Shown piece after piece: positions 192-5,949 of a DNA stretch of 64,000 nt (positions are counted from its first letter, which is position 1; each line of letters begins with the position of its first letter). Made by a program: the position numbers and the translations under genes. The notes under the pieces were generated by a model. That model saw only the letters and a program-made list of their open reading frames with translations, did no database searches and was not told the DNA's origin. The stretch is from Escherichia phage P896. Location: the sequence record OL451225.1. One strand, 5' to 3'.

Positions 192-276
192 TCATTTTTT
201 CCATAGGCACCATCATATTTTTCTCACAGGTTTAAGATATGATAATTATATCACTGTATTTTTAGAGCAATTAATG

Positions 277-780
277 TTAGTTAATACCTTGGCGTGCTTT
301 CTCTTTAGCTACACATTTATTAATATAGCTCAGACGGTTTTGAGCAGAACGCTGATACATATCGCGGTACTCATTAGCTTTTGGAGAACCCGTCTCCGCT
401 GCCTGATAAGCTTCTGCGCGCATGATGTTTATCTGCATATTGATATATGACATGCAGACCTGCGAAATCTGGTTAACAGTATCCAGGTCATTTTGTCGCT
501 TGGTTTCTGCTTCCAGCTTGGCAATGATTTCGTCATGCTTCGCAGCTTGCTCGCGTTTGTACTCAATTTCTTGTTGAGCATATTTCGCGCAGTTGTTTCC
601 ACATTGATTGTTGTCGCGTTTGTAGATAAGTCCAGTACCACCTTTGAAATCAAAGGAACCATTATGCACCTGACGGTCTGCAGCAATTCGCGCTTTACCA
701 ATCTCGTTGGCATTAACAACATCACCCTGGTAAGCACAACCAGATAGCAGCATAACAGCTGCGATAGCTAACTTTTTCAT
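277..780 (-). CDS. predicted lipoprotein, 167 aa (signal peptide with LSGC lipobox)
   Basis: ORF 277..807 trimmed to the internal ATG giving MKKLAIAAVMLLSGC. Sits where T4 carries beta-gt and gene 42. Confidence 0.55.
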   Translation of the reverse strand: MKKLAIAAVMLLSGCAYQGDVVNANEIGKARIAADRQVHNGSFDFKGGTGLIYKRDNNQCGNNCAKYAQQEIEYKREQAAKHDEIIAKLEAETKRQNDLDTVNQISQVCMSYINMQINIMRAEAYQAAETGSPKANEYRDMYQRSAQNRLSYINKCVAKEKARQGIN

Positions 781-930
781 TGTATTTTCCTCAATTAAAA
801 CATTCATAGCGGGCTTGGAGCCCCAAAAATACCCAACCCAAAATTAAAGTTGGAATCATATGTGGAGTCATTATTGCCCAGTAGATTGACATACTAAAAA
901 ATGCAATCAGTACAATAATTGTAATTATCT

Positions 931-1173
931 TCATTTTGCTTCCTTGATGATAATTACTTGTGCATTTGATTTACGTTCAGCAACGAGTGCCCAGATAAAT
1001 GCAATAAACCATCCGACCATTGTCCAACCTAACAGGAGGTTAACAAAGAAGATTCCGCAATTACTTTTGGTTCCACGCAGTAGCGCGATAATCCACGGCA
1101 GAAAATATACCAGTGCAGCCAGGAAGAAAGAACCAGCCCCAAGAACAACAGTACCCGCAATTAATGCTTCCAT
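931..1173 (-). CDS. imm: small two-helix membrane protein, Imm-like (superinfection immunity) by position
   Basis: ORF 931..1245 starts on GTG; trimmed to ATG at 1173 preceded by GAGGA. 80 aa with two hydrophobic helices, immediately downstream of gene 43 as imm is in T4. Confidence 0.5.
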   Translation of the reverse strand: MEALIAGTVVLGAGSFFLAALVYFLPWIIALLRGTKSNCGIFFVNLLLGWTMVGWFIAFIWALVAERKSNAQVIIIKEAK

Positions 1174-1189
1174 TTTAATATCCTCAAGT

Positions 1190-1245
1190 TTGTAATCAGT
1201 AGTTGATGGAACAATCATACGGCAATCCTTTGCCGTTGTAAACAC
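1190..1245 (-). promoter_or_regulatory. sigma70-type early promoter cassette (minus-strand -35 GTTTACA, 17-bp spacer, -10 TATGAT) with CGGCAA/TTGCCG inverted repeat in the spacer
   Basis: Read directly on the minus strand upstream of the imm-like start; same architecture recurs across the window. Confidence 0.5.
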
Positions 1246-3960
1246 TTAAAAATCAAACATATCAAAAAGAGTTGCTTTCTTTTCGTAATCAACCTTTGCA
1301 GCTTCGGAGAAACCTGTTAATGGCTTAACAAAAGTCTTCTGGAACAGTGTGTTGTAGTCCATCCACTGCAGAACCTGGTCACGGATTTCAATCGGGAGTT
1401 CAATCCCAGATGGCCATGCAATCACGGTTTCACCAAACGGGTTGCCGACTTTGAGCGGAAGTACATACACCTTTTCCCCTTCCATGATTTGCGGAACAGT
1501 CTTCAGACCTTTAGTTGCACGCATATATGCAAGCACACCTTTGATATGAGCCGGACACTTAAATCCAGGGAAACCGCCTTCATTATATTTCTGGATGTTG
1601 TTAACCGATGATACACCTGCGATGGTCATGTAGTTAAGCTCATTAAATTCCTTATTGAATTCCTTGAAGTATGTCTGCAGAGATTCTTCACCTTCTTGCA
1701 GCATACGGCGGATACATTCTTTCAGAGCTTTCTGACATGCCTTTGGAGTACTCGACTTTTGAGTTTCCAGACCCATGATTTTCAGTTTCGGAACAGCATA
1801 TCGTGTGCCTTCCATATCGTACACGTTCAACGCATAACGCTTCTTCGCTGTCCAGAATCCACCAACACCCTTCGAACCCAGTGGAGGACATGCAATCGCC
1901 TCACGGTCCATAAACATAAGGTGCTGTTTGTTGTTCATGTATTCAGCCAGCTCACGGAAAGCTTTATCGATTGCCGGTTCCAGACGGTCTTTCGCAAACT
2001 TGTCCATGAAGTCAACCAGGTGGTTTGTATCGCGGAATTTAGATTCACCACCAACCTTTTTAATCAGGTTATCGCACTGGATATAAATGGAGTCAGTGTC
2101 ACCATAGAATACGTAGGTTTCGCCGCTTGTCCCACAGACACTATCGAAGTATTCGTTAACTTTACGCTCAATCCACTGCAATGCAAGTTGTCCGAAAGAT
2201 GTAATCGCGGTTGCATTTCGCAGGTCAAAGTAACGGAACCATATATTGCCCAGAGCGCCATAACAACTGTTGATAAGCAGTTTACGGTTAATCTGTGCGG
2301 TCATGCCTGCAACTTCTTCCATCTGCGCTTTGTACAGCATACCATTTAGGACTGTTTGATTCAGACCATGCAGGGCCGTTTTCATATTGTCATCAAAGTC
2401 ATGACGATAATCAACTTCAGGCTCGGTTGTACCAGTTCCTGGATTACGCAGAGCTTCCTTAATCAGTTCACCATTACGTTGAGCCGCAAGCATATAGCCT
2501 TTGTGTTCTTTACGCTGATTAAACACCTTGGTGACTTCTGTCGGAATAATACCCGCAACATCTTTAAAATACATCATACCATTTGGAGCACAACTAAATG
2601 TATCAGATGGACGGTCAGCAGTTCCTGCAATGTATTCGTACATCGGCGCTGGCGCAAATGACCCGGCAATCGTTTCTGGACTGATGTTAATCTGTCGGAT
2701 AATGCTTGGATACAGAGATGTTAAGTCACAGCTCATTACATATTTGTATGCGTTCGGAATCGGTTCCTTAACAAATGCACCAGGGAACGATTGGCGAACA
2801 TGTGATTTGGTTTCCGGAATGACTTTGTTTTGAGTCTTCAGGCTGTTAAAGATAATCGCATCCCAAGTTTTGATTGGGCTGAATACAGACTGAATCTGCA
2901 TTTTTGCATAATAACCCATTGACTGGCTCAGGTTAATAAACTGCCGCTTACGGTCAATCTGCACAACACGATAAACGTCGATGATGTTATAAGAAATATA
3001 CCGCTGGTGATTTGATTCACGCAGTTTAGAAATCGGGCCATCATACGGGAGTTTACCAACACCCAGTTCAGATTCCGCAACATAATCCAACGAATAAGAC
3101 GGTTGGTTTGTGAAGCTGAACTTTTTATACAGGTCCAGATAATCCAGAACAGAGATACCCAGAATCTGAATGATTTCTTGTTCTTCACCAAAGCCGTTGT
3201 TAATGACTTTAACTTTTGTACGACGATGTGGGCTCAGACGTTTTGCCGTAGCTTCACCAAATACATTTTTAAGGCGGTTGTAGATATATGGAATATCAAA
3301 CTTCTCGATGTTCCAACCAGTTAACATAACCGGAGTTTTCTCGTTCCAGAATACCAAATACTGCTGGAGCATTTCTTCTTCTGAATCGAAAGCCATATAA
3401 ACAATTTTTTCCAGGATTTCTTCCGGGACTTCATCACCACCATCTTCCTGCAGCTTAGCAGCAATATCAATAGACCATTGCTCCACAGTGGCGTATGGTG
3501 AGCCCAAAAGGTCAAAGACATAGAATTTATCGTCTACCGAATCATAGTGCGTCAGGGCGTCAATAGGGTGACGTGCTTCAGACGGCTCAGGGAACCCATC
3601 AGGAGATGTCACCTCGATATCGAAGTTAGCCACACGGATTTTACTTGAATCGTATTTGATTTCGTGCGGGTAACGGTCGGACAAGTATGCGAGTTTAAAG
3701 TCGTCCATGCCCATGGCTTCGAGGCCCATGTCATTCATTCGCTTCATCCACTGGGATGCATCACGCATGGAATCGAATTCTTTTTTCACACAACCTTTAT
3801 TATAGATGTCTGTATACTTTGCAGCTTGGTCTTCACGGGCGTGCATAAACAAGCATGGAGCATAAGGGATTTCACGAACACGTTCATGACCATTCTTGTC
3901 AATATATCGTTCGTGTAGGTTGTCACCGATTTGTTCGATAGTTAAATAAAATTCTTGCAT
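1246..3960 (-). CDS. 43: DNA polymerase (family B), gp43
   Basis: 904-aa ORF with N-terminus MQEFYLTIEQIGDNLHERYID close to recalled T4 gp43; exonuclease and polymerase motifs (YGDTDS) present; ATG start with AAGGAAA RBS. Confidence 0.97.
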   Translation of the reverse strand: MQEFYLTIEQIGDNLHERYIDKNGHERVREIPYAPCLFMHAREDQAAKYTDIYNKGCVKKEFDSMRDASQWMKRMNDMGLEAMGMDDFKLAYLSDRYPHEIKYDSSKIRVANFDIEVTSPDGFPEPSEARHPIDALTHYDSVDDKFYVFDLLGSPYATVEQWSIDIAAKLQEDGGDEVPEEILEKIVYMAFDSEEEMLQQYLVFWNEKTPVMLTGWNIEKFDIPYIYNRLKNVFGEATAKRLSPHRRTKVKVINNGFGEEQEIIQILGISVLDYLDLYKKFSFTNQPSYSLDYVAESELGVGKLPYDGPISKLRESNHQRYISYNIIDVYRVVQIDRKRQFINLSQSMGYYAKMQIQSVFSPIKTWDAIIFNSLKTQNKVIPETKSHVRQSFPGAFVKEPIPNAYKYVMSCDLTSLYPSIIRQINISPETIAGSFAPAPMYEYIAGTADRPSDTFSCAPNGMMYFKDVAGIIPTEVTKVFNQRKEHKGYMLAAQRNGELIKEALRNPGTGTTEPEVDYRHDFDDNMKTALHGLNQTVLNGMLYKAQMEEVAGMTAQINRKLLINSCYGALGNIWFRYFDLRNATAITSFGQLALQWIERKVNEYFDSVCGTSGETYVFYGDTDSIYIQCDNLIKKVGGESKFRDTNHLVDFMDKFAKDRLEPAIDKAFRELAEYMNNKQHLMFMDREAIACPPLGSKGVGGFWTAKKRYALNVYDMEGTRYAVPKLKIMGLETQKSSTPKACQKALKECIRRMLQEGEESLQTYFKEFNKEFNELNYMTIAGVSSVNNIQKYNEGGFPGFKCPAHIKGVLAYMRATKGLKTVPQIMEGEKVYVLPLKVGNPFGETVIAWPSGIELPIEIRDQVLQWMDYNTLFQKTFVKPLTGFSEAAKVDYEKKATLFDMFDF

Positions 3961-4999: not shown

Positions 5000-5949
5000 T
5001 TCATTTCCCCAGCCAGTTGAGCAAACAAATAAGTCAAGTGAACTTCGGTATTGGCCGCAATGCCATGGTACTGATTATTCTCACCTACAATCTCATACAT
5101 GCGGATGATACTTGCACCAGTCAGTTTGCCATACATTTCATCAGCCAGCTTTGCGATGAAGCTTGAATAATCATTTGCATGCTTAGGAGCCAGGCCACGG
5201 AGAACTTTAAAGTTACGGTCCTTAAGGGCATCAATCACATCATCAATTGGTGTGCGATTGTTTGTCACGATACTCAGAATACCAGAATCGATAACACCCT
5301 TTGCCGAGTAACGGTCAAGCTCGTTAATTGTCTTACGCAGGTCCGGGAAGTTATGCTTAACCAGAGCAGCAACAACTTTCAGGTCTTCGATTTCAACGCC
5401 TTCATTTTTACATACCGCAACTGCACGATGAATCATCTCTTTCATCATGGTAGTCTGGTCAGCCGGAGTTGCTTCACCGAACTTAATGACGCGACAACGA
5501 GACTGCAACGGAGTAATGATGCCATCAATATTGTTCGCGGTCATAATGATTGAACAGTTGCTCGAATAAGCTTCCATAAAGCTACGGAGGTGCCGTTGTG
5601 ATTCAGCCAGACCTGCACGGTCGAACTCATCGATAACGATTACCTTGCGGCGACCTTCGATTGATTTGGATGATGCAAAGCGAGTCAATTCATTACGCAC
5701 AAAGTCAATTCGACAATCGGAGCCGTTAACAAACAGCATATCAGAATTCGTATCTGCGCACATAGCTTTTGCAACTGTTGTCTTACCAGTACCAGGGGAA
5801 CTACTGACCAGAATCAAGTTAGGAATCAAACCTTTTTTAACAATCGCCTCTAATGTTTCTTTATCATGAGCCGGGAGAATACACTCTGATAATGTACCTG
5901 GGCGGTATTTTTGTTCCCACATGAATTCTTTGTCATTAACCGTTAACAT
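4990..5949 (-). CDS. 44: clamp loader ATPase subunit gp44 (AAA+)
   Basis: 319 aa; Walker A SSPGTGKTT and DEFD Walker B; position between 45 and 62. Confidence 0.95.
   Translation of the reverse strand: MLTVNDKEFMWEQKYRPGTLSECILPAHDKETLEAIVKKGLIPNLILVSSSPGTGKTTVAKAMCADTNSDMLFVNGSDCRIDFVRNELTRFASSKSIEGRRKVIVIDEFDRAGLAESQRHLRSFMEAYSSNCSIIMTANNIDGIITPLQSRCRVIKFGEATPADQTTMMKEMIHRAVAVCKNEGVEIEDLKVVAALVKHNFPDLRKTINELDRYSAKGVIDSGILSIVTNNRTPIDDVIDALKDRNFKVLRGLAPKHANDYSSFIAKLADEMYGKLTGASIIRMYEIVGENNQYHGIAANTEVHLTYLFAQLAGEMKWL

What the first reader, a model, noticed from the sequence alone, without database searches (positions are those of the whole stretch)
277..1173. Lipoprotein plus Imm-like membrane protein downstream of the polymerase: candidate superinfection-exclusion pair
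A two-helix 80-aa membrane protein at the imm position is followed by a lipoprotein with a clear LSGC lipobox and a Cys-containing soluble domain. Phage-encoded lipoproteins commonly block the phage's own receptor or DNA entry. The pair has its own early promoter at 1190..1245.
Basis: inference. Interest (0 to 1): 0.45.

Follow-up and report, generated by a model that had tools for sequence, protein, structure and literature searches.

The report
T-even imm cassette with Imm.1-type lipoprotein
Downstream of the DNA polymerase gene of this T4-like coliphage sit the known superinfection-immunity gene imm, a tiny conserved membrane gene, and a lipoprotein related to the never-studied T4 gene imm.1, so the genes are ordinary and already annotated but the lipoprotein's role is still open.

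Summary
The features are real, but there are three genes, not two. The window is a Gaprivervirus (VR7/SP18-like T-even phage). On the minus strand, after gp43, lie:
- imm (931-1173; Pfam Imm_superinfect, 51% identical to T4 Imm);
- a 167-aa lipoprotein (277-780; LLSGC lipobox, four conserved Cys).

A GTTTACA-N17-TATGAT promoter-like site (1242-1214) precedes them and keeps its position in other genera.

The lipoprotein falls in PHROG 1754 with T4 Imm.1, which has no known function. It does not match the Pfam model of Imm.1 (DUF5481). No solved or predicted structure resembles it beyond generic helical hairpins.

For a link to exclusion: family members sit next to imm in four genera at two different loci, and next to spackle in Mosigvirus.

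Against an obligate pair or receptor masking:
- Four other genera carry the lipoprotein directly after gp43 with no adjacent imm, and PEi20 has no imm or spackle anywhere.
- Imm.1 is 98% identical in T4, T2 and T6, which use different receptors.

Verdict: imm is known; the lipoprotein is a new member of an uncharacterised family. An exclusion role is plausible but untested. Interest is modest.

The parts
1214..1242 (-). Early-type promoter-like site, GTTTACA-N17-TATGAT, immediately after the gp43 stop codon (1246-1248) and 41 nt upstream of the imm ATG
   Evidence: Consensus scan gives 10 of 12 matches. The position is conserved after the gp43 stop in VR7, VR25, JS98, PM2, CBH8 and IME523. Function is not shown.
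1219..1236 (-). 7-bp hairpin ACGGCAA-AGGA-TTGCCGT inside the promoter spacer. It is probably the 3' hairpin of the gene 43 transcript.
   Evidence: A hairpin is present at the same place in most of the eight related genomes folded, with different stem sequences and mostly an AGGA-type loop.
931..1173 (-). imm: 80-aa inner-membrane superinfection-immunity protein homologue with two hydrophobic helices
   Evidence: PF14373 E=5e-18. phrog_1039 'immunity to superinfection' E=1.5e-30. 51% identical to T4 Imm. Hydropathy. dN/dS 0.17-0.22.
791..934 (-). 47-aa two-helix membrane ORF (T4 Y02C / '42.1' family). Its start overlaps the imm stop codon (ATGA).
   Evidence: phrog_3610 E=7.6e-27. 57% identical to a 49-aa ORF placed identically after T4 imm. 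VR7 annotates it as gp42.1. A homologue in a metagenomic locus carries Pfam PF26865 Phage_T4_Y02C. Also found in PEi20, IME523, CBH8, EcS1 and PM2.
277..780 (-). 167-aa lipoprotein precursor of the Imm.1 PHROG: signal peptide plus lipobox (residues 1-15), then a 152-aa soluble domain with four conserved Cys
   Evidence: phrog_1754 E=6.6e-47 over the full length. Lipobox and Cys pattern. AF2 model at pLDDT 79.8: helix 24-38, beta-hairpin 41-55, long helix 64-130, helices 135-163. dN/dS 0.04-0.08.
736..747 (-). Lipobox codons L12-S13-G14-C15. Cys15 is the predicted lipidated first residue of the mature protein, followed by Ala at +2.
   Evidence: Read directly from the sequence. The lipobox is kept in 27 of 28 family members.

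Best explanation
This is an early-expressed three-gene envelope cassette of a Gaprivervirus, placed between the DNA polymerase gene and uvsX.

imm encodes the inner-membrane protein that, by homology with T4 Imm, stops the DNA of later-arriving T-even phages from crossing the inner membrane. The 47-aa Y02C/42.1 protein is a second small inner-membrane protein, translationally coupled to imm.

The third gene encodes a lipoprotein. It is exported, lipidated at Cys15 and, having Ala rather than Asp at +2, probably sorted to the inner leaflet of the outer membrane. It would then project a disulfide-stabilised domain into the periplasm: a small beta-hairpin with the invariant GTGxxY...QCGxNC motif, followed by a long helical hairpin. 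It is a divergent relative of T4 Imm.1.

My best guess is that it is an accessory envelope-protection or superinfection-exclusion factor. It would act in the periplasm on something conserved, either the penetrating tail tip of incoming T-even phages or a general envelope structure. It would not mask a particular receptor, and it can work without Imm.

Shown: gene identities, family membership, lipobox and Cys conservation, synteny and purifying selection. Inferred: lipidation, outer-membrane sorting, disulfides, co-transcription, and any role in exclusion. The confidence given applies to the whole statement, including the inferred exclusion or envelope-protection role; the gene identities alone are about 0.9.
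For: Gene identity.

Operon-like packing comes from the sequence: an ATGA overlap between imm and the 47-aa ORF, then a 10-nt gap carrying GAGG before the lipoprotein ATG. A positionally conserved promoter-like site precedes the cassette.

Linkage of phrog_1754 lipoproteins with imm, in four genera and at two loci:
- T4, T2 and T6: 43, imm.1, imm, Y02C, 42.
- Mosigvirus: dmd, Imm.1-like, imm, sp. VR7 has other ORFs in that slot.
- Dhakavirus and Gaprivervirus: 43, imm, Y02C, lipoprotein.

The cassette is exchanged as a block. Between this window and VR25, dS is 1.85 for the lipoprotein and 0.94 for imm, but 0.28 for flanking gp43. The lipoprotein stays under strong purifying selection, with dN/dS 0.04-0.08.

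A periplasmic setting is indicated by the lipobox, the absence of any other hydrophobic segment, and four invariant Cys.

A conserved target is suggested by 98% identity of Imm.1 among T4, T2 and T6.
Against: - No experiment on any family member was found.
- The lipoprotein occurs without adjacent imm in four genera. In PEi20 it occurs without any detectable imm or sp in the genome. Imm occurs in about 1,485 phage records against about 780 with the lipoprotein family. Linkage is therefore facultative.
- The stretch after gp43 is a known plastic region, so adjacency could be positional rather than functional.
- Homology to T4 Imm.1 beyond the first 30 residues rests on PHROG membership and a shared Cys pattern. 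Pfam DUF5481 does not hit the window protein, and hhalign of the mature domains is weak.
- The fold gives no functional clue.
Confidence: 0.4

Rival explanations
1. Receptor-masking lipoprotein of the Llp/Cor type. The outer-membrane lipoprotein would bind the periplasmic face of the phage's own outer-membrane receptor and make it unusable. This would block adsorption by further phages and protect progeny from inactivation on cell debris.
For: It is a phage-encoded, probably outer-membrane lipoprotein with disulfide-forming Cys, expressed from an early-type promoter. Llp works this way on FhuA (PMC9586334).
Against: - The only similarity to the Cor PHROG is in the signal peptide (residues 1-17, E=0.022).
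- The mature protein is 152 aa and mainly helical, whereas Llp is 61 residues (PMC9586334).
- The gene lies in the replication region, not beside receptor-binding genes as llp does beside pb5.
- T4, T2 and T6 Imm.1 are 98% identical, although these phages use different receptors (OmpC/LPS, FadL, Tsx; textbook knowledge).
- About 30 Gaprivervirus records share a lipoprotein at 97% identity or more.
Confidence: 0.08
2. Envelope function unrelated to exclusion. The lipoprotein, and perhaps the 47-aa protein, would stabilise or remodel the infected cell envelope. Possible roles include lysis timing or lysis inhibition, resistance to lysis from without, control of vesiculation, or neutralising a host envelope-based defence. 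It would lie near imm only because the stretch after gene 43 collects small accessory early genes.
For: - The lipoprotein and the Y02C ORF persist in genomes with no imm or sp.
- In four genera the lipoprotein is the first gene after gp43, beside DNA-modification genes rather than imm.
- Gene order within the region is fluid.
- Strong purifying selection, with no sign of fast amino-acid change, fits a housekeeping-like role.
Against: In Mosigvirus the lipoprotein and imm moved together to a different locus and sit beside sp. That is hard to explain by position alone. No homology or fold match points to any specific envelope function.
Confidence: 0.35
3. The lipoprotein and T4 Imm.1 are not truly homologous. 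They would share only a lipoprotein signal peptide and a short tether motif, so the synteny argument built on Imm.1 would not apply to the window protein.
For: hhalign aligns only the first 30 residues with confidence. A global alignment of the mature domains has low probability. Pfam DUF5481 hits T4 Imm.1 at 239 bits but not the window protein. BFVD Foldseek did not return T4 Imm.1.
Against: - All five tested members from five genera match phrog_1754 over its full length, with E from 1e-29 to 1e-47.
- The global alignment puts three of the four Cys in register, together with a shared C-terminal xxN-x-C-V motif.
- The conserved post-Cys motif QG-VV---(D/E)(V/I)G is not part of a generic signal peptide.
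- The position after gp43 is the same as in Kanagawa- and Winklervirus.
Confidence: 0.15

Closest known systems
T4 Imm (Pfam PF14373 Imm_superinfect)
   Same: The 80-aa protein matches the Pfam model well above threshold. It is 51% identical to T4 Imm over its full length, has the same two hydrophobic stretches, lies in the same neighbourhood downstream of gene 43, and is followed by the same small overlapping ORF.
   Different: In T4 the lipoprotein gene imm.1 comes before imm and gene 42 comes after it. Here imm comes first, and genes 42 and beta-gt are not between 43 and uvsX. No phenotype has been tested for this phage.
T4 Imm.1 (Pfam DUF5481, PHROG 1754), an uncharacterised predicted lipoprotein
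   Same: Same PHROG, with full-length profile matches. Both have a lipobox, a conserved QG-VV---(D/E)VG tether motif after the lipid-anchor Cys, a similar Cys pattern (four Cys beyond the anchor in T4 Imm.1, two in the Mosigvirus form), a location near gp43 and imm, and an early-type promoter-like site upstream.
   Different: The window protein is 42 residues longer, carries the GTGxxY...QCGxNC motif that T4 Imm.1 lacks, and does not match the DUF5481 model. Gene order relative to imm is reversed.
T5 Llp and T1/phi80 Cor superinfection-exclusion lipoproteins
   Same: They are phage-encoded lipoproteins with Cys residues and a periplasmic location.
   Different: There is no sequence relationship beyond the signal peptide. 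The window protein is much larger and helical, is not adjacent to receptor-binding genes, and has relatives that are nearly identical among phages with different receptors.
T4 Spackle (gp61.3), periplasmic inhibitor of the gp5 tail lysozyme
   Same: It is an early periplasmic protein with a signal peptide and Cys residues that acts on a conserved part of the incoming tail (PMC7677548). In Mosigvirus its gene is contiguous with imm and the Imm.1-like lipoprotein gene.
   Different: Spackle is a soluble protein of about 97 aa with a different sequence. Its gene lies elsewhere in Gaprivervirus, between dmd and gene 61 in VR7. No similarity to the lipoprotein was detected.

Membership tests
Imm_superinfect (PF14373) / T4 Imm | Match to the Pfam model above the gathering score | tested here: met
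   65.1 bits against a cut-off of 27.9, covering profile positions 1-42 of 42. phrog_1039 E=1.5e-30.
Imm_superinfect (PF14373) / T4 Imm | Small protein of about 80 aa with two long hydrophobic segments, full-length similarity to T4 Imm | tested here: met
   Hydrophobic stretches at residues 3-34 and 39-66. 51% identity over 80 aa, E=4e-29.
Imm_superinfect (PF14373) / T4 Imm | Expression blocks DNA entry of superinfecting T-even phages | not testable with these tools
   Requires infection assays.
T4 Imm.1 family (PHROG 1754) | Full-length match to the PHROG profile | tested here: met
   Window protein E=6.6e-47, residues 1-161 on profile positions 2-147 of 148. T4 Imm.1 E=6.1e-43. Mosigvirus, Winklervirus and Kanagawavirus members E from 1e-29 to 1e-45.
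T4 Imm.1 family, Pfam DUF5481 (PF17578) | Match to the Pfam DUF5481 model | tested here: not met
   No hit for the window protein at E<=1, nor for the JS98, CBH8 and PEi20 homologues at E<=10. T4 Imm.1 scores 239 bits.
T4 Imm.1 family | Homology of the mature domain, not only the signal peptide and tether | tested here: inconclusive
   hhalign is confident only for residues 1-30. The global alignment places three Cys and the C-terminal N-x-C-V motif in register but has low probability.
Bacterial lipoprotein (Lgt/LspA/Lnt substrate) | Signal peptide with a positive n-region, a hydrophobic h-region and a lipobox [LVI][ASTVI][GAS]C | tested here: met
   MKK, then LAIAAVMLL, then L-S-G-C15. The lipobox is conserved in 27 of 28 relatives.
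Bacterial lipoprotein (Lgt/LspA/Lnt substrate) | Actual lipidation and sorting to the outer membrane | not testable with these tools
   Only the +2 rule can be read. The +2 residue is Ala here and A, Q, V or G in relatives, never Asp. That predicts Lol-dependent outer-membrane sorting.
Llp/Cor receptor-masking exclusion lipoproteins | Sequence or profile similarity of the mature protein | tested here: not met
   The Cor PHROG 1119 matches only residues 1-17, E=0.022. There is no PDB sequence or fold match to Llp.
Llp/Cor receptor-masking exclusion lipoproteins | Gene next to the receptor-binding protein gene, and specificity tied to one receptor | tested here: not met
   The gene lies between gp43 and uvsX. 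T4, T2 and T6 relatives are 98% identical.
Spanin outer-membrane subunit (Rz1-like) | Small proline-rich lipoprotein paired with or embedded in an inner-membrane spanin gene in the lysis region | tested here: not met
   The mature protein is 152 aa, helical and contains one proline. It lies in the early region with an early-type promoter. The T4-type spanin genes pseT.2 and pseT.3 are annotated elsewhere in PEi20.

The most novel reading that the evidence does not exclude
The Imm.1-family lipoprotein is an unrecognised third component of T-even superinfection exclusion. Anchored in the outer membrane, it would reach across the periplasm on its long helix and block the incoming tail tip or tube, alone or together with the inner-membrane proteins Imm and Y02C. 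This would explain why the genes travel together, and why phages lacking Imm and Spackle keep the lipoprotein.
Probability: 0.2. Interest if true: 0.6.

Novelty: new member of a known kind. Interest (0 to 1): 0.3.

Why it matters
Superinfection exclusion in T4 is a classic system. It is explained by only two proteins, Imm and Spackle, and the mechanism of Imm remains unknown. T4 itself carries a conserved, never-studied lipoprotein gene, imm.1, directly beside imm. This analysis shows that the window's lipoprotein is a relative of it. It also shows that the lipoprotein–imm linkage recurs in four genera, including a contiguous Imm.1-like, imm, sp cluster in Mosigvirus.

That makes a cheap test possible in the best-studied phage: delete or express imm.1 and its relatives and measure exclusion. 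If the result is negative, the family is just one more small envelope accessory protein of T-even phages. For this window, the practical result is a corrected annotation: three genes, one of them already well known.

Tried and rejected
- Sequence searches. PDB, NCBIfam and PADLOC gave nothing meaningful. Weak Pfam hits (FerB, DUF553) are below threshold and were rejected. The NCBIfam 'T6SS immunity lipoprotein' hit covers only the signal peptide.
- Family size. Large protein searches found a small, phage-only family: 16 representatives among 1.84 billion proteins, 17 clusters in the profile search, and 121 phage records, all Tevenvirinae. No bacterial homologue offers a functional hint.
- Literature. 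No paper studies imm.1, DUF5481 or phrog_1754. One search was swamped by unrelated matches.
- Arms-race idea. The cassette diverges far more than its flanks in VR25. However, dN/dS is low and dS is very high, so this is block replacement by recombination, not positive selection.
- Spanin and DNA-modification roles were considered and rejected (see the membership table). Proximity to arabinose-5-P isomerase genes in other genera is positional only.
- Rfam found nothing in positions 1-1500.

Full report
**Where the window comes from.** Positions 1-1400 match 32 phage records over at least 80% of their length, at about 94-98% identity. These include Shigella phage SP18 and Escherichia phages VR7, VR20 and VR26. 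VR7 and its relatives are classified as Straboviridae, Tevenvirinae, Gaprivervirus. The genes in question are on the minus strand:
- gp43 DNA polymerase, 1246-3960;
- an 80-aa ORF, 931-1173;
- a 47-aa ORF, 791-934;
- a 167-aa ORF, 277-780;
- uvsX, starting at 191.

**Checking the observation.** The 80-aa protein matches Pfam Imm_superinfect at 65.1 bits against a cut-off of 27.9. It also matches PHROG 1039 'immunity to superinfection'. It is 51% identical to T4 Imm over its whole length and has two long hydrophobic stretches.

The 167-aa protein begins MKKLAIAAVMLLSGC. That gives a positive n-region, a hydrophobic core and an L-S-G-C lipobox, followed by Ala at +2. It has no other hydrophobic segment. 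The longer reading from ATG 807 adds an acidic extension before the signal peptide and is not used in related annotations.

A TTTACA-17-TATGAT site lies at 1242-1214. The scan as a whole is not enriched over shuffles. However, the same GTTTACA/-10 arrangement sits directly after the gp43 stop codon in Gaprivervirus, Dhakavirus, Winklervirus, Mosugukvirus and one of the two Kanagawavirus genomes examined. It is absent from PEi20 and EcS1. Where present, it occurs whether the next gene is imm or the lipoprotein.

There is a third gene. The 47-aa ORF (791-934) starts at an ATG that overlaps the imm stop codon and ends 10 nt before the lipoprotein ATG. It has two hydrophobic stretches and matches PHROG 3610 at E=7.6e-27. 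It is 57% identical to a 49-aa ORF in exactly the same place after T4 imm, which is not annotated in the T4 RefSeq record. VR7 calls it gp42.1, and a metagenomic homologue carries Pfam PF26865 Phage_T4_Y02C. The unit is therefore a tightly packed three-gene cassette.

**What the lipoprotein is.** It matches PHROG 1754 (unknown function) over the full profile at E=6.6e-47. T4 Imm.1 is the predicted lipoprotein encoded between gene 43 and imm in T4. It matches the same profile at E=6.1e-43. Members from Mosigvirus, Winklervirus and Kanagawavirus match as well.

Direct comparison with T4 Imm.1 is convincing only for the first 30 residues. That stretch covers the signal peptide and a conserved QG-VV---(D/E)VG motif after the anchor Cys. 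A global alignment puts three Cys and a C-terminal N-x-C-V motif in register but is statistically weak. Pfam DUF5481, which describes T4 Imm.1, does not hit the window protein or its closer relatives. I therefore file it as a PHROG-level relative of Imm.1, not as a DUF5481 member.

The family is small and confined to phages. There are 16 representatives among 1.84 billion proteins and 121 phage records, all Tevenvirinae. Across 28 diverse members, G48, G50, Y53, C60, G61, C64, C109 and C156 are invariant.

The AF2 model built on that alignment has mean pLDDT 79.8. It shows a disordered tether, a helix (24-38), a beta-hairpin (41-55), a 67-residue helix (64-130) and two return helices (135-163). 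Nothing in PDB or BFVD resembles it beyond generic helical hairpins.

The gene is under strong purifying selection, with dN/dS of 0.04-0.08.

**Is it functionally tied to imm?**

Evidence for a link. PHROG 1754 lipoproteins are adjacent to imm in four genera, in two different genomic places:
- T4, T2 and T6: 43, imm.1, imm, Y02C, 42.
- Dhakavirus and Gaprivervirus: 43, imm, Y02C, lipoprotein.
- Mosigvirus: dmd, Imm.1-like, imm, spackle, near gene 41. In VR7 that same slot holds unrelated ORFs.

Movement of the lipoprotein and imm together to a second locus, next to the other known exclusion gene, is the best argument for a functional link.

The cassette also behaves as an exchangeable block. 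Against VR25, flanking gp43 and uvsX are 97-99% identical, while Imm, the 47-aa ORF and the lipoprotein are 66%, 51% and 77% identical. Synonymous divergence is 0.94-1.85 for the cassette genes against 0.28 for gp43.

Evidence against a link. In Kanagawa-, Winkler-, Kagamiyama- and Mosugukvirus, and in two metagenomic contigs, the lipoprotein follows gp43 directly. Behind it come an arabinose-5-phosphate isomerase gene, the Y02C ORF (seen in all but one of these loci) and a nucleotidyltransferase gene, with no imm. I fetched the whole PEi20 genome and found no Imm or Spackle homologue, either by tblastn or with an Imm profile run without filters. Imm is also much more widespread than the lipoprotein. 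The association is therefore real but facultative, and the lipoprotein must be able to act without Imm.

**Mechanism.**
- There is no similarity to Llp or Cor beyond the signal peptide.
- The protein is much larger and helical.
- The gene is not next to receptor-binding genes.
- Imm.1 is 98% identical in T4, T2 and T6, which by textbook knowledge use different outer-membrane receptors.

A conserved target fits better. Candidates are the penetrating tail tip of T-even phages, by analogy with Spackle inhibiting the gp5 lysozyme (PMC7677548), or a general envelope structure.

From the sequence I infer the following:
- export and lipidation at Cys15;
- Lol-dependent sorting to the outer membrane, because +2 is never Asp in the family;
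- two periplasmic disulfides;
- a long helix that could carry the C-terminal bundle well into the periplasm.

None of these points is shown. An equally serious alternative is an envelope function unrelated to exclusion, such as lysis timing, envelope stability or countering a host defence.

**Literature.** I found no study of imm.1, DUF5481 or PHROG 1754. One comparative-genomics paper only lists Imm.1 among T4-group-specific genes and speculates about exclusion (PMC5885020).

**Verdict.** The lipoprotein is a new member of a small, uncharacterised family that includes T4 Imm.1. The exclusion hypothesis is plausible from synteny but not established, and its receptor-masking version is disfavoured. 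Interest is modest. Its main value is a clear, cheap experiment on T4 imm.1.

Noticed in passing
window 791-934 (-); L010 (T4) 5228-5377 (-): A conserved 47-49-aa two-helix ORF overlaps the imm stop codon (ATGA) both here and in T4. It is not annotated in the T4 RefSeq record. It also occurs in genera that lack imm, after the arabinose-5-P isomerase gene.
   Followed up: yes
window 1219-1236 (-); same position in L001, L004-L009, L014: A hairpin directly after the gp43 stop codon lies inside the spacer of the promoter-like site. Most of the eight related genomes folded have a hairpin there, with different stem sequences and mostly an AGGA-type loop, which suggests a conserved RNA 3' structure for gene 43. 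T4 instead has a GC hairpin followed by a U-run. Rfam has no match.
   Followed up: partly
window 245-271 (-): ATTGCTCTA-12 nt-TATAAT lies upstream of uvsX (start at 191). It resembles a T4 MotA-dependent middle promoter. This was recognised by eye from the known consensus only.
   Followed up: no
window 192-276; L001 3192-3432; L003 1192-1533: The spacer between the lipoprotein gene and uvsX is 85 nt here. It is about 240 nt in VR7, and in phage 212 it holds two extra small ORFs (35 and 42 aa). This is an insertion/deletion hot spot among near-identical phages.
   Followed up: no
L011 1495-2530 (Mosigvirus p000v); L012 (AV110): In Mosigvirus the genes for the Imm.1-like lipoprotein, imm and spackle are contiguous between dmd and the gene 61 region. 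All candidate envelope-exclusion genes form one cluster there. The Mosigvirus lipoprotein has only two Cys beyond the anchor.
   Followed up: partly
L015, L007, L016-L018 (Edwardsiella phage PEi20, whole genome): No Imm or Spackle homologue is detectable anywhere in this T4-like genome, although the lipoprotein and the Y02C ORF are present. Either this phage excludes superinfection differently or not at all.
   Followed up: yes
public annotations of relatives: Annotation noise. T4 Imm.1 is named 'iduronate sulfatase' in RefSeq and 'immunity protein' in several records. The window lipoprotein's homologue is called 'capsid and scaffold protein' in PSD2001 and vB_YenM_P8. None of these names has support.
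   Followed up: no
L022 1180-1431 (phage T2): T2 carries an extra 83-aa ORF (T2_046) between gene 43 and imm.1 that T4 and T6 lack. This is another sign that the site is plastic.
   Followed up: no
alignment A4, row P0028: One distant family member has a hydrophobic N-terminus but no lipobox Cys (FMVAFG). It may be a soluble periplasmic version of the protein.
   Followed up: no
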